From IMG/VR virus record IMGVR_UViG_2869947659_000011: a DNA stretch of 36,094 nt. One strand, written 5' to 3'. This DNA is from a virus. Taxonomy: Duplodnaviria; Heunggongvirae; Uroviricota; Caudoviricetes. Positions 142 to 24,072 of this stretch are shown here, one piece after another. Every line of letters begins with the position of its first letter. Position 1 is the first letter of the stretch. The notes below the pieces were generated by a model. It was not told the origin of the DNA. It did no database searches and saw nothing but the letters and a program-made list of their open reading frames with translations. A program made the position numbers and the translations under genes.

Positions 142-492
142 AGCGCTTGCTCCTTTTTCGGGGAGGCGCTAACCTATCATTTGCTTAGGGTAGACGGTTA
201 GGGCCTCGGTTAAACAAAAATGTTTTCCGGGGCCTTTCCACATCTGGCCTTCAGGTATTCCCTCCGACCATCAGCCGAAAGGCACCCGCGCGTAATCTAT
301 CGCTTTTTTGTTACTCCGGCAATTCTGCTCGTTAATTCTGAGGTAAGGGCAAACTCATCTGATTGTTTCCTCTGTGTGAAGTTGGCAGTTCATGCCACGG
401 GTAGACTGGCCCCCTGAATCTCCAGACAACCAGTATCACTTAAATAAGTGATAGTCTTAATACTAGTTTTTAGACTAGTCATTGGAGTACAG

Positions 493-858
493 ATGATTGA
501 TGTCTTAGGGCCGGAGAAACGCAGACGGCGTACCACACAGGAAAAGATCGCAATTGTTCAGCAGAGCTTTGAACCGGGGATGACGGTCTCCCTCGTTGCC
601 CGGCAACATGGTGTAGCAGCCAGCCAGTTATTTCTCTGGCGTAAGCAATACCAGGAAGGAAGTCTTACTGCTGTGGCCGCCGGAGAACAGGTTGTTCCTG
701 CCTCTGAACTTGCTGCCGCCATGAAGCAGATTAAAGAACTCCAGCGCCTGCTCGGTAAGAAAACGATGGAAAATGAACTCCTCAAAGAAGCCGTTGAATA
801 TGGACGGGCAAAAAAGTGGATAGCGCACGCGCCCTTATTGCCCGGGGATGGGGAGTAA
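493..858 (+). CDS. insC: IS2 transposase OrfA (InsC)
   Basis: ORF-track protein [40 protein letters not shown]... matches IS2 InsC; start taken at the internal ATG (493) rather than the track start 448. Confidence 0.9.
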
Positions 859-1721
859 GCTTAGTCAGCCGTTGTCTCCGGGTGTCGCGTGCGCAGTTGC
901 ACGTCATTCTCAGACGAACCGATGACTGGATGGATGGCCGCCGCAGTCGTCACACTGATGATACGGATGTGCTTCTCCGTATACACCATGTTATCGGAGA
1001 GCTGCCCACGTATGGTTATCGTCGGGTATGGGCGCTGCTTCGCAGACAGGCAGAACTTGATGGTATGCCTGCGATCAATGCCAAACGTGTTTACCGGATC
1101 ATGCGCCAGAATGCGCTGTTGCTTGAGCGAAAACCTGCTGTACCGCCATCGAAACGGGCACATACAGGCAGAGTGGCCGTGAAAGAAAGCAATCAGCGAT
1201 GGTGCTCTGACGGGTTCGAGTTCTGCTGTGATAACGGAGAGAGACTGCGTGTCACGTTCGCGCTGGACTGCTGTGATCGTGAGGCACTGCACTGGGCGGT
1301 GACTACCGGCGGCTTCAACAGTGAAACAGTACAGGACGTCATGCTGGGAGCGGTGGAACGCCGCTTCGGCAACGATCTTCCGTCGTCTCCAGTGGAGTGG
1401 CTGACGGATAATGGTTCATGCTACCGGGCTAATGAAACACGCCAGTTCGCCCGGATGTTGGGACTTGAACCGAAGAACACGGCGGTGCGGAGTCCGGAGA
1501 GTAACGGAATAGCAGAGAGCTTCGTGAAAACGATAAAGCGTGACTACATCAGTATCATGCCCAAACCAGACGGGTTAACGGCAGCAAAGAACCTTGCAGA
1601 GGCGTTCGAGCATTATAACGAATGGCATCCGCATAGTGCGCTGGGTTATCGCTCGCCACGGGAATATCTGCGGCAGCGGGCTTGTAATGGGTTAAGTGAT
1701 AACAGATGTCTGGAAATATAG
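816..1721 (+). CDS. insD: IS2 transposase OrfB (InsD), expressed as InsCD by -1 frameshift
   Basis: 301-aa ORF with the IS2 InsD sequence (..HSDRGSQY-like DDE core, ends ..[11 protein letters not shown]); overlaps insC as in IS2. Confidence 0.9.
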
Positions 1722-1732
1722 GGGCAACTCCA

Positions 1733-1928
1733 ACGGGATGCCCTCTGATGAGTGAATGGGGGAGGCGTGCTTTGAAGTGAATTTGTGGAAGGCTTCCAGT
1801 GTTGAGAAACATACGCCGCATTCTAGATTGTTACACTGATAATACTTTTGTCTCACGGTGTTTGAATCATTTTCCGGACGACTGGTGCGGATACGGGCAG
1901 ATGCGCCACAAAGCGGACAACGGAACAT
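1733..1928 (-). pseudogene. ogr: Ogr/Delta-family zinc-finger late-gene activator, 3' end interrupted by IS2 (native C-terminal codons continue at 396..332)
   Basis: MFRCPLCGASARIRTSRPENDSNTVRQKYYQCNNLECGVCF.. has the CxxC..CxxxxC layout of P2 Ogr. The track ORF (1692..1928) runs 13 codons into the IS2 right end. Removing IS2 and one copy of the target duplication restores an in-frame continuation ..SSEGIPWHELPTSHRGNNQMSLPLPQN with TAA at 332..334. Confidence 0.8.
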
Positions 1929-2054
1929 AGCGACCTCTCTTATTGTAGTGCTTGCACTATTCTAGGTTGTATTCTCTAAGATTTAAACATGACTTTCTCG
2001 GTAATGCTGCCAACTTACTGATTTAGTGTATGATGGTGATTTTAAGGTGCTTGC

Positions 2055-2330
2055 GTGGCTTCCATTTCCATCAGATGTCCTTCCTGCTCCGCTACTGAAG
2101 GCGTGGTGCGTAACGGCAAAAGCACTGCCGGACATCAGCGCTATCTCTGCTCTCATTGCCGTAAAACATGGCAACTACAGTTCACTTACACCGCCTCTCA
2201 GCCCGGTACGCACCAGAAAATCATTGATATGGCCATGAATGGCGTCGGATGTCGCGCCAGTGCACGCATTATGGGCGTTGGCCTCAACACGGTTTTACGT
2301 CACTTAAAAAACTCAGGCCGCAGTCGGTAA
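2055..2330 (+). CDS. insA: IS1 InsA
   Basis: 91-aa [46 protein letters not shown].. matches IS1 InsA. Confidence 0.9.
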
Positions 2331-2752
2331 CCTCGCGCATACAACCGGGCAGTGATGTGATTGTCTGCGCTGAAATGGACGAACAGTGGGGCTACGTCGG
2401 TGCTAAATCACGTCAGCGCTGGCTGTTTTACGCGTATGACAGGATACGGAGGACGGTTGTGGCGCACGTCTTCGGTGAACGCACTCTGGCCACACTGGAG
2501 CGTCTTCTGAGCCTGCTGTCGGCCTTTGAGGTCGTGGTATGGATGACGGATGGCTGGCCGCTGTATGAATCACGCCTGAAGGGAAAGCTGCACGTTATCA
2601 GCAAGCGTTACACTCAGCGCATTGAGCGACATAATCTGAATCTGAGACAACATCTGGCAAGGCTGGGACGGAAGTCACTGTCGTTCTCAAAATCGGTGGA
2701 GCTGCATGACAAGGTCATCGGGCATTATCTGAACATAAAACACTATCAGTAA
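2249..2752 (+). CDS. insB: IS1 InsB (made as InsAB' by -1 frameshift)
   Basis: 167-aa ORF overlapping the insA 3' end, typical IS1 layout. Confidence 0.85.
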
Positions 2753-2810
2753 GTTGGAGTCATTACCGACTTTCTCTATATAATGATTTTTAGCATTAGT
2801 TAATAAACGA

Positions 2811-7318: not shown

Positions 7319-7475
7319 CTGCTCCCTCCCTGTGCGGCATGGTCGCATGTGCGTGCGGAGGGGGTTACTGCTTTTTGTTGTCGCCGTGGCGGGAGAACGG
7401 CGCAGGGGTGAGATTACGCGCGTGGTGGGTGATGATTGTTGCTGAATCATTTAACGGATACAAGGGGCTGAAGCT

Positions 7476-8660
7476 ATGAGTGAAACTCGTTTTCATGGTG
7501 CCCGTGTTACGGAGAATACCGACCTGGTAACAGCGATTAACGATGTTGATTCCAGCGTTATCGGTATCGTGGCAACGGCGGATGATGCGGACGCGAAGCT
7601 GTTCCCGCTGAACAAGCCCACACTGCTGACCCGCGTCAATGACGTGCTGGGAAAATGCGGGACAACGGGGACGCTTTATCGTGCGCTTAAGGCCATCGCA
7701 GACCAGGTGAGCACAAAGGTGATCGTCGTTCGCGTGGCTGAACACAAAGAAGAAGACGGAAAGACGCAGGATCAACTGGTTATCGGTGGTTCTGAGGATG
7801 ACGGCAGCTATACGGGGATGTATGCGCTGCTTGTTGCAGAGCAGGATGAAAGCATCGGATACCGTCCGCGTATTCTGGCCGCGCCGGAGCTGGACACGGA
7901 GGCGGTAACAAAATCCCTGTGCGTGATTGCAGATAAACTGCGCGCGTTTGTGTATGCCTCATGTCATGGCTGTAACACGATGGCCGAGGCAATTACCTAC
8001 CGCCAGAAATTCAACGAACGTGAGGTGATGCTCTTATGGCCGGACTTCATCGCCTACAACCCGAAAAATGGCAAAAACGAAACGTTCCCCGCGCCTGCCT
8101 ATGCGTGCGGCCTTCGTGCGTACATTGACCATGAACAGGGATGGCACAAATCGCTGTCCAACGTTCCGGTTAAAAATGTGCTGGGGATGTCGAGGCATGT
8201 GTTCTGGTCGTTGCAGGCCGAAGACAGCGATGCCAACAGCCTCAACAACAAAGAAATCACGACCATTATTCGTCGCAACGGGTTCCGCTTCTGGGGTAAC
8301 CGCACACCGGAAACGAACGCCTACATCTTTGAGGTGTATACCCGAACCGCACAGGTGCTGGCTGATTCAATTGCGGAAGCGCAGTTTGAAACCATCGACA
8401 GTCCACTGACGCCTGCGAATGTGAAGGATGTTATCAGTGCCATCAGGGCAAAACTGGATTCACTGGTGACTGCCGGGAAACTGATTGGCGCGGAGTGCTG
8501 GTATGACGTGGTGGATAACAGCACCACGGATTTACGTCAGGGACGTGTGCGTATTCGCTACAAATATACGCCCGTTCCGCTACTGGAAGACATGGAGCTT
8601 TACCAGACGTTTACTGATGAATACTTTGAACCCGCATTTGCGGTGCTGGGAGGTGCCTGA
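7476..8660 (+). CDS. FI: Tail sheath protein (P2 gpFI-like)
   Basis: 394-aa ORF; the N-terminal region (..IGIVATADDADAKLFPLNKPTLLTRVND..) resembles P2 FI as remembered; size and position before the tail tube gene fit. Confidence 0.88.
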   Translation: MSETRFHGARVTENTDLVTAINDVDSSVIGIVATADDADAKLFPLNKPTLLTRVNDVLGKCGTTGTLYRALKAIADQVSTKVIVVRVAEHKEEDGKTQDQLVIGGSEDDGSYTGMYALLVAEQDESIGYRPRILAAPELDTEAVTKSLCVIADKLRAFVYASCHGCNTMAEAITYRQKFNEREVMLLWPDFIAYNPKNGKNETFPAPAYACGLRAYIDHEQGWHKSLSNVPVKNVLGMSRHVFWSLQAEDSDANSLNNKEITTIIRRNGFRFWGNRTPETNAYIFEVYTRTAQVLADSIAEAQFETIDSPLTPANVKDVISAIRAKLDSLVTAGKLIGAECWYDVVDNSTTDLRQGRVRIRYKYTPVPLLEDMELYQTFTDEYFEPAFAVLGGA

Positions 8661-9170
8661 TGGCTGTGCCAAAACATCTTCGCTTTTTTACGCTGTTTGT
8701 GGATGGTGAAAACGAAGTGGGTAATGTGACGTCCGTCACTCTGCCTAAGCTGACGCGCAAAACCGACAGCTACCGGGGTGGTGGCATGATGGGTGCGGTA
8801 AGTATTGATCTCGGTCTGGACGACTCCGCGCTTGATGCGAGCTTTGTCATGGGGGCGCAGTTCGTGAGCTGTTCCTTAAGTATGGCGGCACGATTGACGG
8901 CACGCTGCTGCGTTTTGCGGGTGAATACTACACCGATGCAGAAAGCGACCTGTATGAAGTCGAAATGCGCGGACGTGTGACGGAAATTGATATGGGGGAA
9001 GCCAAACAGGGCGAAGCCACATCACACACTTACGCCATTAAAACACCTACTACAAGCTGAGTGTTAACGATCGCCCGTTGTGGGAGATTGACCTGCTGAA
9101 CTTCATTTACCGGAAGGACGGCAAGGACATTGTGCCCGATCGCATCCGTTCCGCGCTTGGGCTTGGCTGA
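8660..9170 (+). pseudogene. FII: Tail tube protein (P2 gpFII-like), two frameshifts as sequenced
   Basis: P2 FII-like sequence is split over three frames: frame 1 to about 8855 (..LPKLTRKTDSYRGGGMMGAVSIDLGLDD..), frame 2 (..RFAGEYYTDAESDLYEVEMRGRVTEIDMGEAKQGE..), frame 3 (..TYYKLSVNDRPLWEIDLLNFIYRKDGKDIVPDRIRSALGLG*). The shifts sit at a G5 run (8851..8855) and an A4 run (9040..9043). Confidence 0.8.
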
Positions 9171-9225
9171 TAAGTAATATGCTGGCGGCGCAGTGCGTCG
9201 CCTCTGACTGAAAAGGAGACAACAG

Positions 9226-9600
9226 ATGAAAGACATCGATACTGAAACCCGGAATAACACCGTGGCGGATAATGTGACGGCAGTTGAGGATATGGCTGTC
9301 GAACGTGGCGTAAAACTGACCCGACCAATTGAGCGTGGTGGCGAAAAAATCACGTATGTGGAGATCACCGGGGCTATTGAGCAGGCTGGATCCCTGTGTG
9401 GTCTGTCGCTGTCTGATGTGCTGAATCTGAAAGCGGATACCATGTTCACGCTGTTGCCTCGCGTGACCTCGCCACGACTGGATGAAGTGATGATTAAAAA
9501 AATGTCGTCACGCGATTTTATTCAGTTGTGCGCTGTGGCTGTAAATTTTATGAGCGAGCCAGACTCTGGCGCGAAGAGCGTGCAGGAGACGGCAGCGTAA
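9226..9600 (+). CDS. E: Tail assembly chaperone (P2 gpE-like)
   Basis: 124-aa ORF between the tail tube and tape measure genes; the -1 frame ORF 9528..9764 overlaps its 3' end as expected for E/E'. Confidence 0.75.
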   Translation: MKDIDTETRNNTVADNVTAVEDMAVERGVKLTRPIERGGEKITYVEITGAIEQAGSLCGLSLSDVLNLKADTMFTLLPRVTSPRLDEVMIKKMSSRDFIQLCAVAVNFMSEPDSGAKSVQETAA

Positions 9601-9764
9601 TCACCCTGGTGTGCTTTGAGCACATCGAAGATCTGGTGGCGGATATTGCCGCCATTTTTAACTGGTCGCCCGCCGAAATCTTCATGATGACGCCCGGCGA
9701 AGTGGTTAGCTGGCGTGAGCGGGCGGCACTTCGTAGCGGGAATGCAGACAATGAAGACTCTTGA
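9528..9764 (+). CDS. E' extension, reached by programmed -1 frameshift from E (E+E' fusion)
   Basis: ORF in the -1 frame relative to E, opening just upstream of the slippery heptamer and ending inside the start of T. Confidence 0.55.
   Translation: MRCGCKFYERARLWREERAGDGSVITLVCFEHIEDLVADIAAIFNWSPAEIFMMTPGEVVSWRERAALRSGNADNEDS
9543..9549 (+). promoter_or_regulatory. Candidate -1 ribosomal slippery heptamer A_AAT_TTT for E to E'
   Basis: AAATTTT fits the X_XXY_YYZ pattern in the E frame (codons gta aat ttt) and lies 15 nt after the E' frame opens. Confidence 0.45.
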
Positions 9765-12558
9765 TATCCGGGTCGCTTTCAGCGCCGTTGACAGGCTGAC
9801 CCGGCCTGCCGAAAACGCCCGCCGCCTGATGGGGCAGTTTGGTGACTCCATCCAGCGAACGCAGGGGGCGATCAAAAATCTCGAGCGTCAGGCGCGATCA
9901 TTTGAGCGCGCCCGTGACGCTGTCAGTAAAGCGGATGCGGGCATCGTGAAAGCACGACGCCAGCTTAACGCCCTTAATCAGTTACAACGCACGGGTACAG
10001 TGCTCAGCGAAAAACAACAAAAGCTGATGCAGCAGTTAAGCACCCGGCTTGAACGCCTGAATGAATCGCGCACACGGGAAATTCAGAAAATGCGGGAGCT
10101 TGGCGGAGAGCTGAAACGCCACGGCATTTCCCTGACAGGCAGCGATAACACCATCCAGCAGGCCATCAGACGCACCGAACAGTACAACAACCAGCTTGAA
10201 CGCGAACGGCAGGCGCTTGCGCGTGTAACACGGGCGCGTGAGCGGTATTCGCGCGCGCAGGAAACAGCGGGAAAACTGAAAACAGGTGGTGCGCTGGCAA
10301 TTGGTGCGGCAGCGGCGGGCGGCTATGCTGCCGGGCGTTTTTTGCAGCCTGCGATCGGGTTCGGCAAAGAGATGTCCCGCGTTCAGGCACTGACGCGAAT
10401 CGACCAGAACAGCCTGCAGTTTAAGGCGCTGCGTGAGCAGGCGTTAAAACTTGGCTCTGAAACGCAGTTCACCGCAGGCGATGCCGCCAGTGGACAGGCA
10501 TTTCTTGCAATGGCTGGCTTTACACCACAGGCCATTCAGGCTGCGCTCCCTGGCGTACTGAGCATGGCAACGGCTGGCGGTATGGACCTCGGTGAGACGG
10601 CGGATATTGACTCAAATATTCTGACGCAGTTCGGTCTTTCTGCTGACCAGATGGACCGGGTCGGCGACACACTCACCGCAGCGTTTACCCGTACCAACAC
10701 TGACCTTCGCGCACTGGGTGAAACCATGAAATATGCAGGTCCGGTGGCGGGTAAGCTGGGAATATCTCTGGAGCAGGCCGCAGCGATGGCGGGCGTGCTG
10801 GCGAATATGGGTATCAGGGGGAGTGATGCTGGTACGGCAATGCGTGCCAGCCTGGCTCGTCTGGCATCACCGCCAAAGGCGGCAGCAGAGGCGCTGAAAG
10901 AGCTTGGCGTGTCTGTCTCGGATGCCGGGGGCAAAATGCGCCCGATGGAGGATGTGCTGGCTGACCTTTATAAAGCTACCCGCAAATACGGGGAAGTTGA
11001 CCGGGTATCGTTCTTTAAGGACATTGCCGGAGAAGAGGCTTTCACATCATTTATGGCCCTCGTTGATGCGGCAGGTGACGGCTCCTTACCCAAACTGAGA
11101 AAAGAACTTGAAGGCGCGCGCGGTGAGGCTGAACGCACGGCAAAGGTTATGGCCAACAACCTTGACGGCGATCTGAAATCACTCAGCAGTGCATGGGAAG
11201 GGTTGCGCATCCGCATTGCAGATCTGATTGACGGTCCGCTGCGTTCTGTCACGCAGTGGCTCACGCGTGTGGTATCAAAGGTGACGGCGCTGGCGCAGGC
11301 CCATCCCGCACTGACGCGCCAGCTACTGATTGCAGGCGGTGCATTGCTGGCAATGACTGCAACGGTTGGCTCGTTGTCGCTGGCTATTGGTGTGCTTGCT
11401 GGCCCGCTGGCAAAACTGCGTCTTGGTTTTTCCCTCCTGACCGGATCAATGAATGCTGTCAGGGTTCTGCCAGCACTATGGGGAATGGTGACGGGTTCCG
11501 TTTCTTTACTGGGAGGCGCTATCGGGGCGTTGTTCAGTCCGGTTGGTCTTATCGTGGCTGCGCTTGCCGGAGCTGCCGTTCTTATCTGGAAATACTGGGA
11601 TCCCATCAGGGCATTTTTTGCCGGGGTGTTCAGCGGGATTATGGAAAGGCTGACCCCGTTGCGCGAAACCTTTGAACGGTTTGGTCCTGTTTTTGACGCA
11701 ATCGCGAGTGGGATCAGCCAGGTGTTTAACTGGTTTAAATCGCTGCTGTCACCGATGGAGTCCAGCAAGGAAACTCTGGATAAATGTACCAGTGCTGGCG
11801 AGATATTCGGTAACGTTCTTGGCGGTGCGTTACAACTTGTTCTGACACCTGCAAAAATGTTGCTGGATACGCTGGCGTGGATACTTGAAAAGCTTGGTGT
11901 GCTTCCGGATGAAGCGGAAAGGGCGCGCAAGAAAATCGAAGACGCACAGCGTGCGGCCATTCTTCAGGACAAGGTTGCCTTGCTTCAGGGGGACCTGGCG
12001 AAAATCAATCCGCCGAAGCCTGTGGAAAATGGCAATGGCACCGGAGGTGATAACCCCAAAGACAATAAACCGCTCACAGACAGTAATACCGGTACGCTGC
12101 GCAGACTCAGCAAAATTGCTGATAACACAGGTAAGCTGGTTGAGGAGACGAAAAAACGCATTGGCCCCGGCGATATTGTCTTTAAAAACCTGCCCCGAGC
12201 ACTTGCTGTTCGTGGGGAGTGGCAGGAGCGGAAGATTGCGCAGGTCAGTAAGCCTGCCCCCGCAATTAATATCACACCCGTGGTTCCGGCTCCGCTGCCT
12301 CCGGCGCTGGTCCCTGTTGTTGCGGCCAGCTCCCGCCCGGTGGCGGAGGCTATACGATCTCCAGTGGCATCAGTTCCTGTAACTTCCCGTAACCGGGAGC
12401 CTGTTGCCTCCGGATTTGGTGGTGAAATTCATGTTCATCTGCATAACGTTGTTACGCAGAATCCCCGCGAACTGGCGAAACTGGTCGGTGAAATGGTCAG
12501 GGCAGAAATGGAACGGCGCGCCCGTGCCGGGCGTGGCTGTTTTTACGATAAAGATTGA
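9715..12558 (+). CDS. T: Tail tape measure protein (P2 gpT-like)
   Basis: 947-aa ORF; long coiled-coil N-terminal region and Gly/Ala-rich hydrophobic central block; position after E/E'. Confidence 0.88.
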   Translation: MSGRHFVAGMQTMKTLDIRVAFSAVDRLTRPAENARRLMGQFGDSIQRTQGAIKNLERQARSFERARDAVSKADAGIVKARRQLNALNQLQRTGTVLSEKQQKLMQQLSTRLERLNESRTREIQKMRELGGELKRHGISLTGSDNTIQQAIRRTEQYNNQLERERQALARVTRARERYSRAQETAGKLKTGGALAIGAAAAGGYAAGRFLQPAIGFGKEMSRVQALTRIDQNSLQFKALREQALKLGSETQFTAGDAASGQAFLAMAGFTPQAIQAALPGVLSMATAGGMDLGETADIDSNILTQFGLSADQMDRVGDTLTAAFTRTNTDLRALGETMKYAGPVAGKLGISLEQAAAMAGVLANMGIRGSDAGTAMRASLARLASPPKAAAEALKELGVSVSDAGGKMRPMEDVLADLYKATRKYGEVDRVSFFKDIAGEEAFTSFMALVDAAGDGSLPKLRKELEGARGEAERTAKVMANNLDGDLKSLSSAWEGLRIRIADLIDGPLRSVTQWLTRVVSKVTALAQAHPALTRQLLIAGGALLAMTATVGSLSLAIGVLAGPLAKLRLGFSLLTGSMNAVRVLPALWGMVTGSVSLLGGAIGALFSPVGLIVAALAGAAVLIWKYWDPIRAFFAGVFSGIMERLTPLRETFERFGPVFDAIASGISQVFNWFKSLLSPMESSKETLDKCTSAGEIFGNVLGGALQLVLTPAKMLLDTLAWILEKLGVLPDEAERARKKIEDAQRAAILQDKVALLQGDLAKINPPKPVENGNGTGGDNPKDNKPLTDSNTGTLRRLSKIADNTGKLVEETKKRIGPGDIVFKNLPRALAVRGEWQERKIAQVSKPAPAINITPVVPAPLPPALVPVVAASSRPVAEAIRSPVASVPVTSRNREPVASGFGGEIHVHLHNVVTQNPRELAKLVGEMVRAEMERRARAGRGCFYDKD

Positions 12559-12564
12559 GGAGTC

Positions 12565-13059
12565 ATGGCCATGATGATGATCTACGGCATGTTTGTTTTT
12601 GAGCTGCGCACGCTGCCGCATCAGCAGTTACAGCAAAACAAAAGCTGGCGGCATGTGAAAAATGAACGCGTTAACCGTTCAGCAAGCTGGCAGTATATCG
12701 GTGCAGGTGATGATCGCATCGTTCTTTCTGGTGTGCTTTATCCTGAAATTACAGGTGGCGAAGTGTCGCTGTCGCTGCTGACTACGCAGGCGTATACAGG
12801 ACGACCCTGGCCTTTGATTGATGGCGTCGGGCAGATTTACGGCATGTATGTCCTGACTGAAACGAATACGACCCGCTCCGAGTTTGATCGCTACGGTAAG
12901 GCGAAAAAGATAGAATTTTCACTGACTCTTGAACGCTGTGATGAGGATTTGCGGGAGCGCCTGCAATCCTCATCGTTCAGTGATATGCTGTCCGGCTTCA
13001 AAGATAAGGTGACATCATCTCTTAACAGCGCGGCCAGTTCAGTTAAAGGGCTGTTCTGA
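12565..13059 (+). CDS. U: Tail protein (P2 gpU-like)
   Basis: 164-aa ORF directly after T, same size class as P2 U and similar as remembered. Confidence 0.8.
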   Translation: MAMMMIYGMFVFELRTLPHQQLQQNKSWRHVKNERVNRSASWQYIGAGDDRIVLSGVLYPEITGGEVSLSLLTTQAYTGRPWPLIDGVGQIYGMYVLTETNTTRSEFDRYGKAKKIEFSLTLERCDEDLRERLQSSSFSDMLSGFKDKVTSSLNSAASSVKGLF

Positions 13060-13068
13060 TTTAACACA

Positions 13069-13098
13069 AAAACCGCTAATGGTCAGATTAGCGGTTTT
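13069..13098. terminator. Perfect 12-bp-stem hairpin between the convergent U and invertase genes (bidirectional terminator candidate)
   Basis: AAAACCGCTAAT-GGTCAG-ATTAGCGGTTTT; the right arm overlaps the last codons of the invertase gene. Confidence 0.5.
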
Positions 13099-13687
13099 CA
13101 TTTTCCTGAGTCTGCCCGGTTGTTTCTTCAGTCTGTATATCGCCTACAGGGTGATAACGATAAATCGTCGATGTGCCAATGCCGTAAATTATTGCCAGTT
13201 GTTTTCTGTCGTGCCCGTTTTTGATTAGCCTTGCTATTTGCTCATGCTGTTCTTTTGTCAGCTTCGGTCGACGTCCGCCTGTGCGCCCCCTTGCGCGCGC
13301 TGCCGCCAGCCCGGCCAGTGTACGTTCAACAATTAATTCACGTTCCATTTCAGCCAGGGCACCCATCACGTGGAAGAAAAAACGCCCCATTGGAGAAGAT
13401 GTGTCTATGCTGTCGGTCAGACTGCGAAAATTAATCCCTCGCTCCCGTAGTTCCCCGACGAGAGAAATCAGATGTTTCATGCTTCGCCCGAGGCGATCCA
13501 GTTTCCAGACAACCAGCGTGTCACCTTTTTGAAGGCGCTTTAAAGCGCGTTTTAATCCCGGTCGGTCTGTCTTTGTCCCGCTTAATTTATCTTCAAATAT
13601 TTGTTCACATCCTGCACAAACAAGAGCGTTTCGTTGCAGGTCTGTATTCTGGTCATTTGTTGATACCCTTACATAGCCAATCAGCAC
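13088..13687 (-). CDS. Serine DNA invertase, Gin/Cin/Pin/Hin family
   Basis: From the GTG at 13687 the product begins MLIGYVRVSTNDQNTDLQRNALVCAGCEQIFEDKLSGTKTDRPGLKRAL..., which closely matches the remembered N-termini of Mu Gin and e14 Pin (catalytic Ser in YVRVST, C-terminal HTH). The track start (TTG at 13705) is probably 6 codons too long. Confidence 0.9.
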   Translation of the reverse strand: MLIGYVRVSTNDQNTDLQRNALVCAGCEQIFEDKLSGTKTDRPGLKRALKRLQKGDTLVVWKLDRLGRSMKHLISLVGELRERGINFRSLTDSIDTSSPMGRFFFHVMGALAEMERELIVERTLAGLAAARARGRTGGRRPKLTKEQHEQIARLIKNGHDRKQLAIIYGIGTSTIYRYHPVGDIQTEETTGQTQENENR

Positions 13688-13741
13688 ACTGAATCTCCCG
13701 TCCAAAAGCGCAAATCATGCCATGCAGGCCAGAAACGGCCA

Positions 13742-13767
13742 TTATTTAAAACCTCGGTTTACAGGAA
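13742..13767. promoter_or_regulatory. Left inversion crossover site (gix/pix-like), between the invertase gene and the silent fibre cassette
   Basis: TTATTTAAAACCTCGGTTTACAGGAA differs at about 2 positions from Mu gixR as remembered and is the inverted partner of the site at 16417..16442 (shared 12-bp core ACCTCGGTTTAC / GTAAACCGAGGT). Confidence 0.7.
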
Positions 13768-14627
13768 ACGGTAAACAGGGCTGGTAACGCCGTGCAAAAA
13801 AATGGCGATACCTTGTCCGGTGGGCTTACTTTTGAAAATGACTCAATCCTTGCCTGGATTCGAAATACTGACTGGGCGAAGATTGGATTTAAAAATGATG
13901 CCGATGGTGACACTGATTCATACATGTGGTTTGAAACAGGCGACAACGGCAATGAATATTTCAAATGGAGAAGCCGCCAGAGCACCACAACAAAAGACCT
14001 GATGACGCTGAAATGGGATGCACTAAATATTCTTGTTAATGCTGTCATTAATGGCAGTCTTGGAGTTGGTTCGACGAATGCGTTAGGTGGTAGCTCTATT
14101 GTTCTTGGTGATAATGACACCGGATTTAAACAGAATGGAGACGGTATTCTGGATGTTTATGCTAATAGTCAGCGTGTATTCCGCTTTCAGAATGGAGTGG
14201 CTATTGCTTTTAAAAATATTCAGGCCGGGGATGGTAAAAAATTCACGCTATCCAGCTCCAACAACTCCACAAAGAATGCAACGTTTAATTTATGGGGTGC
14301 TTCAACCCGTCCAGTAGTTGCAGAGTTAGGCGATGAGGCAGGATGGCATTTCTATAGCCAGCGAAATACAGATAACTCGGTAATATTTTCTGTTAACGGT
14401 CAGATACAGCCCAGCAACTGGGGAATTTTGATTCACGCTATGTAAAAGATGTTCGCCTGGGTACGCGTGTTGTTCAATTGATGGCGCGTGGTGGTCGTTA
14501 TGAAAAAGCCGGACACGCAATTACCGGATTAAGAATCATTGGTGAAGTAGATGGCGATGATGAAGCCATCTTCAGACCAATACAAAAATACATCAATGGC
14601 ACATGGTATAACGTCGCACAGGTGTAA
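13768..14627 (+). pseudogene. Alternative tail-fibre C-terminal segment (Sv'-like), promoterless silent copy, frameshifted near 14424..14428
   Basis: The reading frame is open from the crossover site (..NLGLQETVNRAGNAVQKNGDTLSGGLTF..), in phase with H across the site. The conserved fibre C-terminus ..DSRYVKDVRLGTRVVQLMARGGRYEKAGHAITGLRIIGEVDGDDEAIFRPIQKYINGTWYNVAQV* is in the next frame after a missing base in GGAATTTT. Confidence 0.6.
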
Positions 14628-14630
14628 ATT

Positions 14631-15157
14631 ATGCAGCATTTAAAAAATATTAAGTCCGGAAATCCAAAAACAAAAGAACAATATCAGCTAACAAAGAATT
14701 TTGATGTTATCTGGTTATGGTCCGAAGACGGTAAAAACTGGTATGAGGAAGTAAATAACTTTCAGGACGACACCATAAAGATTGTATACGACGAAAATAA
14801 TATTATTGTTGCCATAACTAAAGATGCCTCAACGCTTAATCCGAAGGCTTTAGTGTCGTTGAGATTCCAGATATAACAGCCAATCGTCGTGCCGATGATT
14901 CAGGGAAGTGGATGTTTAAGGACGGAACTGTGGTTAAGCGGATTTATACAGCAGACGAACAGCAACAACAGGCCGAATCACAAAAGGTCGCGTTGCTTTC
15001 TGAAGCTGAAAGCGTTATTCAGCCACTGGAACGCGCTGTCAGGCTGAATATGGCGATGGATGAGGAACGCACACGACTGGAGTCATGGGAACGCTACAGC
15101 GTTCTGGTCAGCCGTGTGGATACAGCAAATCCCGAATGGCCACAAAAGCCTGAGTAA
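14631..15157 (+). pseudogene. Alternative tail fibre assembly chaperone (Tfa'), frameshifted near 14843..14848
   Basis: Track ORFs 14631..14876 and 14912..15157 together match the opposite-strand Tfa ([22 protein letters not shown].. then ..[28 protein letters not shown]). Reading continues in the +1 frame through ..[28 protein letters not shown]... Confidence 0.65.
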
Positions 15158-15162
15158 AAATT

Positions 15163-15182
15163 AAGGCCCAATATCGGGCCTT
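15163..15182. terminator. Hairpin between the convergent tfa' and tfa genes
   Basis: AAGGCCC-AATATC-GGGCCTT lies between the two stop codons (15155..15157 and 15186..15188). Confidence 0.5.
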
Positions 15183-15185
15183 CTC

Positions 15186-15719
15186 TCATTCTGGTTGTTC
15201 GGGAAACGTTACTGGCAGGCTGGAGGGGTCTGTAGATTCGACTTTCTGCGCATAGAGCATCCACTCGGTTAATTTTTGTTTATTCTCGTCGGAAATGATG
15301 CCCAGCCGTAGCTGTGAGTCCCATAGCTGGGTTTTATCCCTGACAAGTTGCAACAGGCTTTGCTTTTCATTTTCCGCTTGTTGCCTCTGCTCTTCCTCGG
15401 TATAAGTTCGCTTTATCACTACGCCATCTTTGAACAACCATTTCCCCGAAATATCAGCCCGGCGATTTGCTGTAATATCAGGTAATTCAACGACGCTTGC
15501 GCCTTCCGGATTAATTGCTGAAACATCCTTTTCAATACAAATAATAACGCCGTTATGGTAATAGACCATTTTCAAAGTGTCTGGCTGGAAATTCTTTTGT
15601 TCCTCATACCAGTTTTTTCCATCATCTGAATAAAGCCATTTGATGTTAAATTGCTTTGTTAGCTGGTATTGCTCTTTTGTTTTAGGGTTGCCAGCAGTAA
15701 TGTTTTTTAAGTGCATCAT
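15186..15719 (-). CDS. Tail fibre assembly chaperone (Tfa/gpG-like), expressed orientation
   Basis: 177-aa ORF directly after H; about 70% similar over its length to the tfa' copy; Tfa-like sequence as in Mu U and e14 TfaE. Confidence 0.8.
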   Translation of the reverse strand: MMHLKNITAGNPKTKEQYQLTKQFNIKWLYSDDGKNWYEEQKNFQPDTLKMVYYHNGVIICIEKDVSAINPEGASVVELPDITANRRADISGKWLFKDGVVIKRTYTEEEQRQQAENEKQSLLQLVRDKTQLWDSQLRLGIISDENKQKLTEWMLYAQKVESTDPSSLPVTFPEQPE

Positions 15720-15792
15720 CGTTAAATACTCCCCGCGTTATACCACGTCCCATTAATGCAATACTGAATTGGCCTTGCCTGTGTTGTATCAA

Positions 15793-17706
15793 TTAATTCA
15801 TCACGGTTTCCGTTAACTGAACCCGTAACGACATAACCTGACCTGTCAGACCAGCCGGACCATTCCATGTCTGAACAGATGACAGACCGCCAAGGCGAAT
15901 ACCTGTAATAAACCTTGAGTTACATTCTGCCCGCGTATATGCACCAACATCTCCCGCTGAAGGTTTTCGTGTCGTGGTATAGAAATCTGACCAACCTAAT
16001 TCAACCCCATAACCATCACGAGCCGACCTGTAGGAAATGCCACCATTTTTATAATTCACACGGAATTGTACGGCAGGACAGCTACCAGCATTTATATTAA
16101 AGTGAAGAATTAATGCAGATGCACCACCAATCAGGGCGTTATATGCACCACTATCCCAATTCCATCCAACGGATGTATCACCATTAACAGTATTACCTGT
16201 TTGTCGGAGTGCAAATGCATTGACATTTTTGGCACTAATTGAAATATCGCTAGAACCATCAAAACCAACTCCAGCAATTTTTCGTGCTGTTTTCAGCTTT
16301 GTTGCAGTAGCGGCATTGCCGGACAGTTCCCCAGAAAGGCCACCGCTGAATGTTTGTCGATTGGTCCAGGTATTCGCTGTACTGAGTAACGGTATTTTCT
16401 CCCCGCTTGTGCCGAGTTCTCGTAAACCGAGGTATTCGATAACGGCAGCAACGGTCGATTTCGCAAGAATATCCCGCCCGACTTTTGTCAGGGTTGCCAG
16501 GCTGGCGACATCATTCCCCGTAAAATACGGAAACCTGTCTGCCGCAGTAGCAAGCCCGGCCAGCGCCGTCAGGGTGGCATCTTTCGGTTGCTTACCCGCA
16601 AGCGCGTTAGTCATGGTGGTCGCAAAATTCGGGGCGTTTCCCAGCGCCGCCGCTAACTCGTTCAGCGTATTCAGTGCGTCAGGTGACGAATCTACAAGGG
16701 CGGCAATCGCAGCCATAACGAAAGCCGTGCTTGCGATTTGGGTATTATTCGTTCCCTGTCGCGCAGTTGGCGTTGTTGGCGTTCCGGTCAGCGCAGGACT
16801 GTTTAAGGGCGCTTTCTTGTTCGTTTCATCCATTACCGCCTTAACCGCTTTCGATGTCGCGGCCAGTGTTTCAGACGTGCTGTTGGTGGCACTACTGAGC
16901 TGGACTATCCCTTTTTGTGCCGTCGTGGCGTCCTGAGCGGTATATTTTGCGTTAGCAAGGTCATACGCGGCCTTTACTGCTTTCGGCGTTGCAGCCTGCG
17001 TTTCAGACGTGCTGTTGGTGGCGCTACTGAGCTGGACAAGGCCTTTTCGCGTCGTGCTGGCATCCTGCGCAGTATATTTACCGTTAGCAAGATCATACGC
17101 GGCCTTTACTGCTTTCGGCGTTGCAGCCTGCGTTTCAGACACGCTGTTAGTGGCGCTACTGAGTTGAACAAAGCCTTTTGCGGTCAGCGAGGCGTCCGGG
17201 TGACGTCGTGACTGTTCATGCTCTTTCAGTTTGTCATCCACGTAATCCACTGTGGCCATCACCATGGTGTTGTCCACGGTAAGCGCCACGGTGGCAGTGC
17301 TGGATACGGTCAGAATGGTGCGAAATGTTTGTGCACGACCGGACCCTTCGGCAACGGCTGGCTTGTAACTTTCGGCAGTATTTCCCACCGCGATTAAATC
17401 GCCGTGCTCATCAAATACACCAATTTCCCGGATCCAGAATCCGCCCGTTTCAGGAGGAATAACCAGCTCCGCAATAATGCGGTTCTGATGTGTTGCGTCC
17501 AGGATGACGCGATTAACAGTATGTCGCCACACCTCATGCACCAGACGGGTCTGCTTACTGTCTGGTGTGGGCAACGTGCCGCCACCGTCGCCCACGGCCA
17601 TATGAGTCAGGCGGACAGGCTTACCATCTGGCGCGGCTACCTGAGCTAATTTTTTTGCACCCGTATCGGTGATAATGGTTTTAAATTTTCGTGTTGTGGT
17701 ACTCAT
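15793..17706 (-). CDS. H: Tail fibre protein (P2 gpH-like): constant N-terminal part joined to the currently expressed variable C-terminal segment
   Basis: 637-aa ORF; three tandem 38-aa repeats of the phage tail-fibre repeat type (..KGLVQLSSATNSTSETQAATPKAVKAAYDLANAKYTAQDA..); the crossover site is embedded in frame at codon ~424. Confidence 0.88.
   Translation of the reverse strand: MSTTTRKFKTIITDTGAKKLAQVAAPDGKPVRLTHMAVGDGGGTLPTPDSKQTRLVHEVWRHTVNRVILDATHQNRIIAELVIPPETGGFWIREIGVFDEHGDLIAVGNTAESYKPAVAEGSGRAQTFRTILTVSSTATVALTVDNTMVMATVDYVDDKLKEHEQSRRHPDASLTAKGFVQLSSATNSVSETQAATPKAVKAAYDLANGKYTAQDASTTRKGLVQLSSATNSTSETQAATPKAVKAAYDLANAKYTAQDATTAQKGIVQLSSATNSTSETLAATSKAVKAVMDETNKKAPLNSPALTGTPTTPTARQGTNNTQIASTAFVMAAIAALVDSSPDALNTLNELAAALGNAPNFATTMTNALAGKQPKDATLTALAGLATAADRFPYFTGNDVASLATLTKVGRDILAKSTVAAVIEYLGLRELGTSGEKIPLLSTANTWTNRQTFSGGLSGELSGNAATATKLKTARKIAGVGFDGSSDISISAKNVNAFALRQTGNTVNGDTSVGWNWDSGAYNALIGGASALILHFNINAGSCPAVQFRVNYKNGGISYRSARDGYGVELGWSDFYTTTRKPSAGDVGAYTRAECNSRFITGIRLGGLSSVQTWNGPAGLTGQVMSLRVQLTETVMN
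16417..16442. promoter_or_regulatory. Right inversion crossover site (gix/pix-like) inside the tail fibre gene
   Basis: TTCTCGTAAACCGAGGTATTCGATAA is the inverted partner of 13742..13767 and encodes ..EYLGLRE.. in H; the Sv' frame reads ..NLGLQE.. across its partner, so inversion keeps the frame. Confidence 0.65.
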
Positions 17707-17708
17707 GC

Positions 17709-18239
17709 TTAATCGCCTGGATAAATGGTAATAACTTCACCGTCATAAGTTGCCGCCGCTGCGAAAATATCCCCCGGAATTTCCTGAATGATATTCAGCC
17801 CTGTCATGTGGCGGCTGACCGGGCGGGCATCAGCAATCAACCGCTCCATTTCCAGATACATTTCCTCCGTCACGCCACTGTCCAGCGTGCCGACTTCAAC
17901 GGTAAATGTTCCCGGTTCTCCGCCGAACTCCCACCACTCAGACACGCGAATGAGGTATCCCAGCGGCTCAATGGCCCAGCGCAGTGCGCTGATGGTCCCT
18001 TTGTGTCGGTGTATCAGCCATGCATCACGAATAACCTGTCGCTTTGTCTCTTCCGGCCAGTTGCGATCCCAGCGGTCAACGGAAAACGCCCAGGCGAGAT
18101 AAGGCAGCAGATGCACCGGGCAGGTGTCCGGCGACCACAGCGTGTTGAGGTCTACCGGAATGTCTGTAATGCGTGTTCCGACGGCTTCGGCACAACGCAT
18201 GAAATTGCTGGCTGATGGTGGTAACAACGAATTACTCAT
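17709..18239 (-). CDS. I: Baseplate assembly protein (P2 gpI-like)
   Basis: Track ORF 17709..18272; start taken at the ATG at 18239 (MSNSLLPP..), giving 176 aa as in P2 I; position between J and H. Confidence 0.78.
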   Translation of the reverse strand: MSNSLLPPSASNFMRCAEAVGTRITDIPVDLNTLWSPDTCPVHLLPYLAWAFSVDRWDRNWPEETKRQVIRDAWLIHRHKGTISALRWAIEPLGYLIRVSEWWEFGGEPGTFTVEVGTLDSGVTEEMYLEMERLIADARPVSRHMTGLNIIQEIPGDIFAAAATYDGEVITIYPGD

Positions 18240-19128
18240 TGCGTCCACCTTCGCTGATGGTGAATGACTCACAGCGCGCCGCCTGTATGTCGCTGATGGC
18301 CATATTCTGTGTGGGTTCGATTATCTCCACGCGTTGCACACCGTGCACATGCAGTGCGGCAGCAATGGCGGACAACGCCACGTCCTGACCGATAAGCCCC
18401 TGCTCAGCCAGCCACTTCCTGAACGACGATTCAGCCGCGGCCAGAATAGGTTCGGATTCCGGGCCGGGGTAAAAGTACAGTTTTGCATTCAGCCGCCATG
18501 TCACGATTCTGGCACTCTGTACGGTCAGGCGGTCGGCCACCGGGCGGGTATCCTCTGCATTCAGAACGGCGCGAACGGTATTAAGCAACGCCTCCGTTGC
18601 TGTGCCGTCGCCCTCAGTGGACAGGATGGAAACCGTCACGTTGGCCGGAGACGGGCTGATGGCCCGCGCATCGCGTACCAGACCGCTGGCGCTGCGTGCA
18701 AAATACTCGTATGCACCTGACGGGCCAGCAACACTCAGACCGTCATATGCCCGTTGCGCCCGTAGTCTCAGCGAGGTGTCACTTTCCATCACTGCATCGG
18801 TGGTATCCGTTGCCGGAGTGATAACCAGGCGCTTTGTGTTCATATTGCCCGCGAGGTTGTCCAGGTCTGTCCCGGCGCTGTGGCTTAGCATGCAGGCGCG
18901 TGCACCCTCATTGACCCGCTGGCGTAACAGCATTTCACGAAACGACATGGTTTGAGCGATAACGTTAAGGGGTTCCGATTCCAGCTCCAGCGCGGCGGAA
19001 ACGGCTTCACGCTGTTCGGCGGGATAGGACGCAATCATCATGGCCTTTGTGTCAGCCAGAATTGCCTCAAAGTCAGGCTCCGCGATGATGGCGGGTTCCG
19101 GTAACTGTGAAAGGTCAACGGCAGGCAT
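18232..19128 (-). CDS. J: Baseplate assembly protein (P2 gpJ-like)
   Basis: 298-aa ORF; size and position in the V-W-J-I-H block. Confidence 0.82.
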   Translation of the reverse strand: MPAVDLSQLPEPAIIAEPDFEAILADTKAMMIASYPAEQREAVSAALELESEPLNVIAQTMSFREMLLRQRVNEGARACMLSHSAGTDLDNLAGNMNTKRLVITPATDTTDAVMESDTSLRLRAQRAYDGLSVAGPSGAYEYFARSASGLVRDARAISPSPANVTVSILSTEGDGTATEALLNTVRAVLNAEDTRPVADRLTVQSARIVTWRLNAKLYFYPGPESEPILAAAESSFRKWLAEQGLIGQDVALSAIAAALHVHGVQRVEIIEPTQNMAISDIQAARCESFTISEGGRNE

Positions 19129-19131
19129 GAT

Positions 19132-19482
19132 TTACTCCCTCAGCGTGATGGTTAATTCAACATTCTGCATGGTCTGCATGACAGTGCCCGACAGCGTCAC
19201 CCCGGCGCGGCCTCCTGCCTTCCAGACAACGTCGATAGCGTCCAGGGCAATGCGGGGTTCCCATCGTGTCAGCGCAATCACGGCAGCACTCATGCATTGC
19301 AGACGCGTGGTGTTATTCATGGGTTCGTCAATCAAATCAGGCACAAGGCTGCCATATTCCCGTCGCATAACCCGGCTTGCCAGCGGGGTGGTCAGGATGT
19401 CCCTGACTGACTGTTTCAGGTGCTCCATATCGTTCAGGTTTCCCGTTCCGTCCGGGTTCATTCCTGTGTAGCGGGTTGTCAC
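19132..19482 (-). CDS. W: Baseplate wedge protein (P2 gpW-like)
   Basis: 116-aa ORF; size and position match P2 W. Confidence 0.82.
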   Translation of the reverse strand: MTTRYTGMNPDGTGNLNDMEHLKQSVRDILTTPLASRVMRREYGSLVPDLIDEPMNNTTRLQCMSAAVIALTRWEPRIALDAIDVVWKAGGRAGVTLSGTVMQTMQNVELTITLRE

Positions 19483-22406: not shown

Positions 22407-22408
22407 TG

Positions 22409-23103: not shown

Positions 23104-23199
23104 GGGGTTCACTCCTGAAAAAAAATCGGGCGGTGGGTGCGCGGTGTAAACGGTCACGGAGTCAAACCGGAACACCGCGCACGCCGCCCGCTGACGGGG

Positions 23200-24027: not shown

Positions 24028-24072
24028 TTTTGCTCTCCGTTACAGGCGGGCATGATGCCCGCCGTGAGTTGA

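What the first reader, a model, noticed from the sequence alone, without database searches (positions are those of the whole stretch)
13768..15157. Both genes of the silent-orientation fibre cassette carry single-base frameshifts while the expressed copies are intact
Seen in sequence: the alternative fibre C-terminus loses frame near 14424..14428 (GGAATTTT where the conserved reading ..WGNFDSRYVKDV.. needs one more A), and the alternative chaperone loses frame near 14843..14848 (CCGAAGGCT against CCGGAAGGC in the expressed paralogue). Inference: either the unexpressed orientation is decaying, so inversion would now yield a non-functional fibre set, or these are homopolymer indel errors of the same kind seen in FII and N.
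Basis: seen in the sequence. Interest (0 to 1): 0.45.

Follow-up and report, generated by a model that had tools for sequence, protein, structure and literature searches.

The report
Likely assembly-error frameshifts in flipping fibre cassette
The frameshifts in the phage tail-fibre switch are in the sequence, but there are three, one of them in the expressed fibre gene, and they are most likely consensus errors of a long-read assembly in a DNA segment that flips, not gene decay.

Summary
The window is a defective P2-like prophage of a Shigella chromosome (CP026766.1). It carries a Mu G / P1 C-type invertible tail-fibre segment, bounded by crossover sites at 13743-13768 and 16417-16442, with the invertase at 13088-13687.

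The two reported frameshifts exist:
- G5->G4 at 14416-14419 in Sv'.
- C3->C2 at 14839-14840 in U'.

The claim that the expressed copies are intact is wrong. The expressed fibre gene H lacks one base at 15855-15856 and loses its last 45 residues.

Five fragmented draft or read-run assemblies (taken to be short-read) that carry the window's private U allele differ from the window across the 2.65-kb segment only by these three bases. All four cassette genes are intact there. Sanger-sequenced Sb227 is also intact at these three sites.

Outside the segment, 17,016 nt of the window match such contigs exactly. That stretch includes the FII and N frameshifts and the D nonsense codon, so those lesions are real.

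Other assemblies taken to be long-read-only show the same picture in this segment: S. boydii ATCC 8700 and two E. coli O145 clones carry deletion-only differences concentrated there.

Best reading: these are long-read consensus artefacts in a segment present in both orientations. Only the G4 allele stays ambiguous, because it also occurs in one contig from a run of unknown platform.

The parts
13088..13687 (-). Serine DNA invertase (Gin/Cin/Pin family), 199 aa, intact ORF, next to the invertible segment
   Evidence: Pfam Resolvase (1.4e-50) and HTH_7 (4e-13). Annotated 'recombinase family protein' in relatives.
13743..13768 (.). Invertase-proximal crossover site (gix/cix-like); its reverse complement reads TTCCTGTAAACCGAGGTTTTAAATAA
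   Evidence: Inverted-repeat arm I3. Shares the AAACC-NN-GGTTT core of the annotated P1 cix sites. Fragmented draft and read-run contigs end here. The outer half-sites are swapped in flipped relatives.
13792..14627 (+). Sv', the alternative fibre C-terminus, silent in this orientation. One base short in the G run 14416-14419 (G4 versus G5), at codon 209 of 278.
   Evidence: Pfam Gp34_trimer. G5 in L013-L017, Sb227, UTI89 and 127 of 129 complete E. coli genomes carrying this module.
14631..15157 (+). U', the alternative tail-fibre assembly chaperone (silent). One base short at 14839-14840 (C2 versus C3), at codon 70 of 175.
   Evidence: Caudo_TAP on the C-terminal fragment. The 81-aa N-terminal fragment exists in no other assembly on record. 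C3 in every other locus fetched that matched the site pattern.
15186..15719 (-). U, the chaperone of the expressed orientation, 177 aa, intact. It carries a private allele (15227 G) that identifies the closest relatives.
   Evidence: Caudo_TAP 1.9e-35. The exact protein is found in 5 independent fragmented draft or read-run assemblies.
15722..17706 (-). Fibre gene H: constant part 17706->16443 joined to Sv 16416->15722 in the expressed orientation. One base short at 15855-15856 (C3->C2 on the coding strand), at codon 617 of 661. The ORF ends early at 15793.
   Evidence: Pfam Phage_tail_fib and Phage_fiber_2. The 637-aa product exists only in CP026766.1. G3 in every other locus fetched that matched the site pattern.
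16417..16442 (.). Distal crossover site inside H (TTCTCGTAAACCGAGGTATTCGATAA)
   Evidence: Inverted-repeat arm I3. 22 of 26 bases identical to the reverse complement of the annotated P1 cixR (my count on the sequences printed; features). Draft and read-run contigs end here.
8660..9171 (+). Context: tail tube gene FII with two genuine frameshifts (8850 G6->G5, 9039 A5->A4)
   Evidence: The same bases occur in 9 independent assemblies taken to be short-read, 8 of them 100% identical over 4976-11160, and in Sb227.
402..2767 (.). Context: IS2-like element (402-1732) inserted in ogr and an IS1 (2000-2767). Together with the D nonsense codon (codon 41) and the N frameshift (about 24948) they show a genuinely defective prophage.

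Best explanation
The region is an ordinary Gin/Cin/Pin-type invertible tail-fibre switch. It has one constant fibre N-terminus, two opposed Sv-U cassettes and an adjacent serine invertase. It sits in a P2-like prophage of a Shigella chromosome (CP026766.1), and that prophage is already dead for other, genuine reasons.

The three single-base deletions inside the switch (14416-14419, 14839-14840, 15855-15856) are most likely consensus errors of a long-read-only assembly, not mutations.

Shown:
- They are private to this assembly, or in the case of G4 recur mainly in assemblies taken to be long-read.
- They are deletions in G/C runs.
- They are the only differences from the nearest relatives taken to be short-read.
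- All of them lie in the 2.65-kb invertible segment, while 17 kb around it is error-free.

Inferred:
- The culture that was sequenced held both orientations of the segment. Fragmented draft and read-run assemblies of the lineage break exactly at the crossover sites, and near-identical genomes carry either orientation.
- During polishing, long reads from the minority orientation are anchored by both flanks and forced through the equal-length reverse-complement segment. This would add noise to the pile-up and leave homopolymer deletions in the consensus.
For: (1) Five independent fragmented draft or read-run assemblies (taken to be short-read) carry the window's private U allele. They differ from window 13751-16433 only by +G, +C and +G at the three sites, plus 0-1 SNP. 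L017 has 0 mismatches in 2644 nt.

(2) The truncated U' fragment (81 aa) and the truncated H (637 aa) occur in no other assembly of the 153-billion-gene index. C2 and G2 are unique among all loci fetched that matched the site patterns.

(3) Logan contigs from run ERR200311 are 100.000% identical to window 4976-11160 and 20148-30978, 17,016 nt in all. So there are 0 private differences outside the segment against 3 inside 2.65 kb. The chance of that under a uniform distribution is about 0.0025 (my calculation).

(4) The same signature appears in other assemblies of this segment taken to be long-read-only.
- S. boydii ATCC 8700 (CP026731.1) against Sanger-sequenced Sb227: 9 single-base deletions, 8 of them inside the segment.
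- E. coli O145 RM12275-C1 against its sister clone RM8995-C1: 20 deletions and 0 substitutions, 17 of the deletions inside the segment.
- RM8988-C1: 2 deletions, both inside the segment, one being the same G5->G4.

(5) Sb227 and CP182558.1 share the window's FII and N frameshifts but have G5, C3 and G3 at the cassette sites.

(6) G4 occurs in only 2 of 129 complete E. coli genomes that carry this module.

(7) Evidence for flipping. The draft and read-run contigs end at the crossover sites although the exact inverted repeat is only about 12 nt. The window and L037 have one orientation, Sb227 and ATCC 8700 the other.

[quoted passage not shown] CP026832 is cited to that paper in PMC10132075. CP026731.1 is S. 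boydii ATCC 8700 according to PMC9430107.
Against: - No reads of the sequenced strain could be examined, so a real, very recent private mutation cannot be excluded for any of the three sites.
- The prophage is genuinely defective (ogr::IS2, D nonsense codon, FII and N frameshifts), so its fibre genes are under no selection and could decay.
- The G4 allele also occurs in a Logan contig of run ERR10497656 (L006), which is 100% identical to window 13527-14571. The platform of that run is unknown. If it is Illumina, G4 exists in nature.
- That CP026766.1 is PacBio-only is inferred from the accession block, not read from its record.
- That the comparator draft and Logan assemblies are short-read, and that the O145 and NCTC-series assemblies are long-read-only, is also inferred (fragmentation, accession series, my own knowledge), not read from their records.
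- The polishing mechanism is inferred, not shown.
Confidence: 0.8

Rival explanations
1. Mixed case. The 14840 and 15856 deletions are artefacts, but G4 at 14416-14419 is a genuine allele: a real slip in a G5 run that truncates the alternative fibre.
For: G4 is found in six independent assemblies: CP026766.1, CP026731.1, AP024518.1 (in a Mu-like prophage), CP035770.1, PSSS01000001.1 and the Logan contig of ERR10497656. The Logan contig is number 4206 of its assembly, which suggests a metagenome or a very fragmented data set rather than the same long-read project.
Against: - The five closest assemblies taken to be short-read, Sb227 and 127 of 129 complete E. coli genomes have G5.
- In the O145 clones the same run reads G5, G4 and G3 in sister genomes that differ by no substitution, which points to an error hot spot.
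- AP024518.1 also has its expressed S gene split into 226-aa and 182-aa ORFs.
Confidence: 0.2
2. All three deletions are real, recent, private mutations. The fibre switch of an already dead prophage is decaying neutrally in this strain.
For: The prophage has lost ogr (IS2 insertion), D (nonsense at codon 41), FII (two frameshifts) and N (one frameshift). All these are confirmed in independent assemblies, so there is no purifying selection on H, U, Sv' or U'.
Against: - Three private indels and no substitution in 2.65 kb, against no difference of any kind in 17 kb of equally unselected prophage DNA.
- The same localised, deletion-only pattern, at other positions, appears in three unrelated assemblies taken to be long-read-only.
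Confidence: 0.1
3. One reading: only the silent cassette decays because it is not expressed, so an inversion would now yield a non-functional fibre set.
For: Both silent genes are frameshifted in the sequence as given.
Against: - The expressed fibre gene H is frameshifted as well, so there is no asymmetry.
- The segment flips in this lineage, so neither cassette is permanently silent.
- Relatives are intact at these sites.
Confidence: 0.02

Closest known systems
Phage Mu G segment with Gin, and phage P1 C segment with Cin
   Same: - Adjacent serine invertase.
- Two inverted ~26-bp crossover sites with the AAACC-NN-GGTTT core.
- Constant fibre N-terminus outside the segment; opposed Sv-U and U'-Sv' cassettes inside.
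- 89-94% DNA identity over 41-48% of the 4.8-kb query to D108, SfMu, P1 and D6. The P1 record annotates cixL, cixR and the crossover points.
   Different: Here the switch sits in a P2-like (Peduoviridae-type) prophage, joined to a P2-type H gene with an N-terminal Phage_tail_fib domain. The host prophage is defective. The frameshifts themselves are not a feature of the family.
Shigella boydii invertible B segment with pinB (GenBank D00660, locus SHFPINB; Tominaga et al. 1991, cited from memory)
   Same: A Shigella chromosomal Pin-type invertase with an invertible fibre segment. The P1 record notes 93% identity of its U/U'/Sv' region to SHFPINB. The same prophage is present in S. boydii Sb227 and ATCC 8700. 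This locus may well be the B segment itself.
   Different: D00660 was not available for alignment here, so identity with the B segment is a lead, not a test.
Residual homopolymer deletion errors of long-read-only (PacBio RS II / early nanopore) consensus assemblies
   Same: Single-base deletions in short G/C or A/T runs, no accompanying substitutions, and absence from Sanger or apparent short-read assemblies of near-identical genomes.
   Different: The errors are not spread evenly. They cluster about 10-fold in the invertible segment, which suggests that orientation heterogeneity in the sequenced culture degrades the consensus locally. That link is inferred.

Membership tests
Gin/Cin/Pin/Hin-type invertible tail-fibre segment | Adjacent serine recombinase with resolvase catalytic domain and C-terminal HTH | tested here: met
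   13088-13687(-): Pfam Resolvase 1.4e-50 and HTH_7 4e-13
Gin/Cin/Pin/Hin-type invertible tail-fibre segment | Two crossover sites in inverted orientation with the conserved AAACC-NN-GGTTT core | tested here: met
   13738-13767 and 16417-16446 are 80% complementary over 30 nt. The distal site matches 22 of 26 bases of the annotated P1 cixR (my count on the sequences printed; features).
Gin/Cin/Pin/Hin-type invertible tail-fibre segment | Constant fibre N-terminus outside the segment; two opposed variable C-terminus plus chaperone cassettes inside | tested here: met
   H reads through the distal site into Sv and U. Sv' and U' lie on the other strand.
Gin/Cin/Pin/Hin-type invertible tail-fibre segment | Segment found in both orientations in otherwise identical DNA | tested here: met
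   ATCC 8700 and Sb227 are flipped relative to the window and CP182558.1, with identical flanks and swapped outer half-sites. Draft and read-run contigs break at the crossover sites.
Gin/Cin/Pin/Hin-type invertible tail-fibre segment | Fis-dependent recombinational enhancer in the 5' part of the invertase gene | not tested
   No scan for Fis sites or enhancer homology was run.
Genuinely pseudogenised silent cassette | Frameshifts present in independent high-accuracy assemblies of the same lineage | tested here: not met
   L013-L017 (taken to be short-read), Sb227 (Sanger) and CP182558.1 all have G5, C3 and G3.
Genuinely pseudogenised silent cassette | Damage confined to the unexpressed orientation | tested here: not met
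   Expressed H lacks a base at 15855-15856.
Long-read consensus indel artefact | Only single-base homopolymer deletions, without substitutions, relative to the nearest accurate assemblies | tested here: met
   L017: 0 mismatches and 3 one-base gaps in 2644 nt.
Long-read consensus indel artefact | Pattern recurs, at varying positions, in other long-read-only assemblies of the same DNA | tested here: met
   CP026731.1: 9 deletions, 8 in the segment. RM12275-C1: 20 deletions, 17 in the segment. RM8988-C1: 2 deletions, both in the segment. That these assemblies are long-read-only is inferred.
Long-read consensus indel artefact | Raw reads or an independent accurate run of the same strain contradict the consensus | not testable with these tools
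   No read data were accessible. The platform of CP026766.1 is inferred from the accession block.

The most novel reading that the evidence does not exclude
The G5 run at 14416-14419 is a genuine, recurrent slip-strand hot spot that switches the alternative fibre Sv' off in some natural strains. That would be a second, mutational layer of variation on top of inversion. This would explain why G4 (and G3) turns up in six or seven independent assemblies, including one contig from a run of unknown platform.
Probability: 0.08. Interest if true: 0.35.

Novelty: not a real feature. Interest (0 to 1): 0.08.

Why it matters
Biologically it matters little. The locus is a textbook Mu G / P1 C-type fibre switch in a dead Shigella prophage, and the reported asymmetric decay does not exist.

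There are two practical points.

1. Pseudogene calls inside invertible segments of long-read-only genomes should not be trusted without accurate reads. In four independent assemblies examined here, single-base deletions were concentrated about tenfold in this one 2.7-kb flipping segment.

2. The frameshifts of FII and N, the D nonsense codon and the IS2 insertion in ogr are genuine in this window. The prophage is dead, although its invertase ORF is intact and the segment evidently still flips.

Tried and rejected
- Searched papers for CP026766, GCA_002949475, ERR10497656, AP024518, ERR200312 and SRR5306569. Only CP026731 was found, so the strain name and platform of the source record could not be read directly.
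- The Kim et al. 2018 announcement (PMC5897796) is not held.
- The ShigaPass paper has no supplements held as text.
- The Logan preprint does not mention sequencing platforms, so the nature of ERR10497656 stays unknown.
- A look-up of the 49-aa TTG-start version of the Sv' tail ORF gave only an unrelated context. The 48-aa ATG version gave mostly assemblies that look like long-read ones (NCTC series, by my reading of the accessions), with frameshifts at varied positions in Sv'.
- I considered that the short contigs L013-L017 might come from a second copy of the segment. I rejected this because they carry the window's private U allele, and the same assembly (GCA_013972985.1) is 100% identical to the window in the 6.2-kb tail region and differs only by one 10-nt repeat unit in the 10.8-kb head-and-lysis region.
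- I considered programmed frameshifting. I rejected it because relatives encode the proteins in a single frame.
- A literature search for a description of the artefact (invertible segments plus PacBio homopolymer errors) found nothing relevant.
- A PADLOC scan of the 1039-aa accessory ORF found nothing.

Full report
**What is there**

The window is a P2-like prophage next to pheT-ihfA. Its closest complete relative in the E. coli collection is strain GDSC2BY4G, at 99.7% over 13000-17800. The window itself is found base for base in GCA_002949475.1, record CP026766.1, a 4.68-Mb chromosome.

That accession lies in a block of Shigella reference genomes:
- CP026731.1 is S. boydii ATCC 8700 (PMC9430107).
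- CP026768.1 is S. flexneri 93-3063 (PMC9455713).
- CP026832 is cited to Kim et al. [quoted passage not shown]

That the source is a PacBio-only assembly is therefore inferred, not read from the record.

**Anatomy of the region**

- A serine invertase (13088-13687, minus strand; Resolvase and HTH_7) lies next to a 2.65-kb segment.
- The segment is bounded by inverted crossover sites at 13743-13768 and 16417-16442. These have the AAACC-NN-GGTTT core of the annotated cix sites of P1.
- The fibre gene H starts at 17706 on the minus strand and reads through the distal site into Sv, followed by chaperone U (15719->15186).
- The opposite strand carries the alternative Sv' (13792->14627) and U' (14631->15157).
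- The DNA is 89-94% identical, over 41-48% of the 4.8-kb query, to the invertible segments of D108, SfMu, P1 and D6.

This is a standard Mu G / P1 C-type fibre switch.

**Checking the observation**

Against GDSC2BY4G and UTI89, the window lacks exactly three bases between 12000 and 18800:
- a G in the run at 14416-14419 (G4 versus G5; Sv' codon 209 of 278);
- a C at 14839-14840 (C2 versus C3; U' codon 70 of 175);
- a G at 15855-15856 (G2 versus G3, which is CCC->CC on the coding strand; H codon 617 of 661).

Putting one base back at each site restores a 278-aa Sv' identical to WP_019841410.1, a 175-aa U' and a 661-aa H ending in ...PIQYCINGTWYNAGSI.

The claim that the expressed copies are intact is false for the fibre gene. 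Only chaperone U is intact.

**Are the deletions mutations or errors?**

I looked up the exact truncated products in a public index of called genes.
- The 637-aa H and the 81-aa U' N-terminal fragment exist only in CP026766.1.
- The window's U protein carries a private substitution (15227 G). It was found in five independent fragmented assemblies, which I take to be short-read: Logan assemblies of runs ERR200312 and SRR5306569, and NCBI drafts GCA_013996715.1, GCA_013998775.1 and GCA_013972985.1.
- In each case the contig is a stand-alone piece of 2.64-2.69 kb ending at the crossover sites.
- Aligned to the window, these contigs differ only by +G, +C and +G at the three sites, plus 0-1 SNP. 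L017 has no mismatch in 2644 nt.
- In those genomes all four cassette genes are therefore intact.
- S. boydii Sb227 (CP000036.1; Sanger-sequenced, from my own knowledge) and CP182558.1 also have G5, C3 and G3.

**The rest of the window behaves differently**

Logan contigs of run ERR200311 are 100.000% identical to window 4976-11160 and 20148-30978, 17,016 nt in all. Several NCBI drafts match equally well or nearly so. These stretches contain:
- both FII frameshifts (8850 and 9039);
- the nonsense codon at codon 41 of D;
- the N frameshift near 24948;
- the A8 and T8 runs at 23118 and 25968-25975.

Sb227 shares the FII and N frameshifts. So these lesions are genuine and lineage-wide. Together with an IS2-like element inserted in ogr and an adjacent IS1, they show a truly defective prophage.

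**Localisation of the private differences**

The assembly has no private difference in 17 kb outside the invertible segment, and three, all single-base deletions in G/C runs, within 2.65 kb inside it. If private differences fell uniformly, the chance of this is about (2.65/19.7)^3, roughly 0.0025 (my calculation).

**The same localised, deletion-only pattern recurs in other assemblies I take to be long-read-only**

| Assembly | Compared with | Deletions | Inside segment |
|---|---|---|---|
| CP026731.1 (S. boydii ATCC 8700) | Sb227, same orientation | 9 | 8 |
| E. coli O145 RM12275-C1 | sister clone RM8995-C1 | 20 (0 substitutions) | 17 |
| E. coli O145 RM8988-C1 | sister clone RM8995-C1 | 2 | 2 |

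One of the two RM8988-C1 deletions is the same G5->G4, and RM12275-C1 reads G3 at that run. Assemblies whose accession numbers suggest the NCTC series also show Sv' broken at assorted positions.

Real decay would not produce different deletion sets, without substitutions, in sister clones, and it would not confine them to one 2.7-kb segment.

**Why this segment? (inference)**

The segment flips in these cultures.
- The exact inverted repeat at the crossover sites is only about 12 nt. Even so, five draft or read-run assemblies break precisely there, as expected when reads support both junctions.
- Near-identical genomes carry either orientation, with the outer half-sites swapped.

Long reads from the minority orientation are anchored by both flanks. 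Because the inverted segment has the same length, they can be forced through it. They then add what is essentially noise: the segment is 57% identical to its own reverse complement, against 52% for a shuffled control. This would lower consensus quality locally and leave homopolymer deletions. I could not test this step.

**The one loose end: G4**

Besides the window, G4 occurs in:
- CP026731.1;
- CP035770.1;
- PSSS01000001.1;
- AP024518.1, where it sits in a Mu-like prophage whose expressed S gene is also split;
- a 1045-nt Logan contig of run ERR10497656, which is 100% identical to window 13527-14571.

That contig is number 4206 of its assembly. It is equally free of mismatches against E. coli GDSC2BY4G, apart from the one-base gap. 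So it may come from a metagenome or a noisy data set, and its platform could not be established.

Only 2 of 129 complete E. coli genomes with this module have G4. I put the probability that G4 in the window is an artefact at about 0.75, and that the 14840 and 15856 deletions are artefacts at about 0.9.

**Comparison with what is known**

The element meets every tested defining feature of the Gin/Cin/Pin family of invertible fibre segments. The Fis-dependent enhancer was not tested.

It is probably the S. boydii pinB / B segment. The P1 record notes 93% identity of its U/U'/Sv' region to locus SHFPINB, but D00660 could not be aligned here.

**Verdict**

- The frameshifts are in the sequence, but there are three of them, not two.
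- They show no silent-versus-expressed asymmetry.
- They are best explained as long-read consensus errors concentrated in a flipping segment.
- Interest is low.
- The decisive test is accurate reads of the CP026766.1 strain across 13700-16500.

Noticed in passing
window 15855-15856 (H gene, minus strand): A third single-base deletion, in the expressed fibre gene. The H ORF ends at 15793 (637 aa) instead of 15722 (661 aa).
   Followed up: yes
window 8850, 9039 (FII); about 24948 (N); D codon 41 (about 7196-7198, minus strand): These lesions are genuine. They occur base for base in up to nine independent assemblies taken to be short-read; Sb227 shares the FII and N frameshifts. The prophage lacks a working tail tube, capsid protein and gpD.
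   Followed up: yes
window 402-1732 and 2000-2767: A 1331-bp IS2-like element (HTH_Tnp_1 and rve ORFs) interrupts the ogr late-gene activator, with a 5-bp overlap in the alignment to L003. A 768-bp IS1 (InsA/InsB) lies 267 bp away, with a 9-bp overlap. Late genes, including the 'expressed' fibre operon, would lack their activator.
   Followed up: partly
window 13751-13772 and 16412-16433; loci L013-L017: Five independent fragmented draft or read-run assemblies yield the invertible segment as a stand-alone 2.64-2.69-kb contig ending at the crossover sites, although the exact inverted repeat is only about 12 nt. This implies that both orientations were present in the cultures, so the invertase of this dead prophage is still active.
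   Followed up: partly
window 23287-23306 (3' part of gene M, minus strand): A 10-nt tandem unit (TTGCTGCTTT) varies in copy number between otherwise identical assemblies: one unit fewer in L052, L054, L057, L058, Sb227 and L037, and one unit more in L053. This shifts the frame of the gpM C-terminus (248, 275 or 276 aa). It looks like a real length polymorphism in a terminase small-subunit gene.
   Followed up: no
window 14639-14645; L033 (Sb227), L037, L009: The sister lineage has A7 instead of A6 in codons 5-6 of U'. This destroys the normal start region, and gene callers then pick a 187-aa ORF starting inside the end of Sv'. It is shared by a Sanger genome and two others, so this cassette frameshift appears to be genuine.
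   Followed up: partly
window 25968-25975 (start of gene O, minus strand): T8 against T7 in more distant relatives. It is genuine, being present in 78 index blocks of assemblies. It moves the scaffold gene onto an ATG two codons downstream (276 aa instead of 278 aa).
   Followed up: partly
window 6209-13059 versus 15186-25978: The FI-FII-E-T-U tail block is on the plus strand, while D, ogr and the H-I-J-W-V, lysis and head genes are on the minus strand. The block is therefore inverted relative to canonical P2 order, and D is divergent from FI. The arrangement is the same in all relatives, so it is a stable trait of this phage group.
   Followed up: no
window 2841-5960 (minus strand): A 1039-aa ORF lies between ogr and D. 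It has no precomputed Pfam hit on record in the gene index and no PADLOC hit. PGAP labels it 'MFS transporter' in GDSC2BY4G. It is an accessory gene of unknown function in a prophage cargo position.
   Followed up: partly
L004 (AP024518.1, E. coli E148) 9541-12654: The Sv'-U' module (window 13800-15100) is almost identical, with 6 differences in about 1300 nt, between this P2-like prophage and a Mu-like prophage whose Sv and invertase are 5-25% divergent. This indicates recent exchange of a single cassette between unrelated myophage backbones.
   Followed up: no
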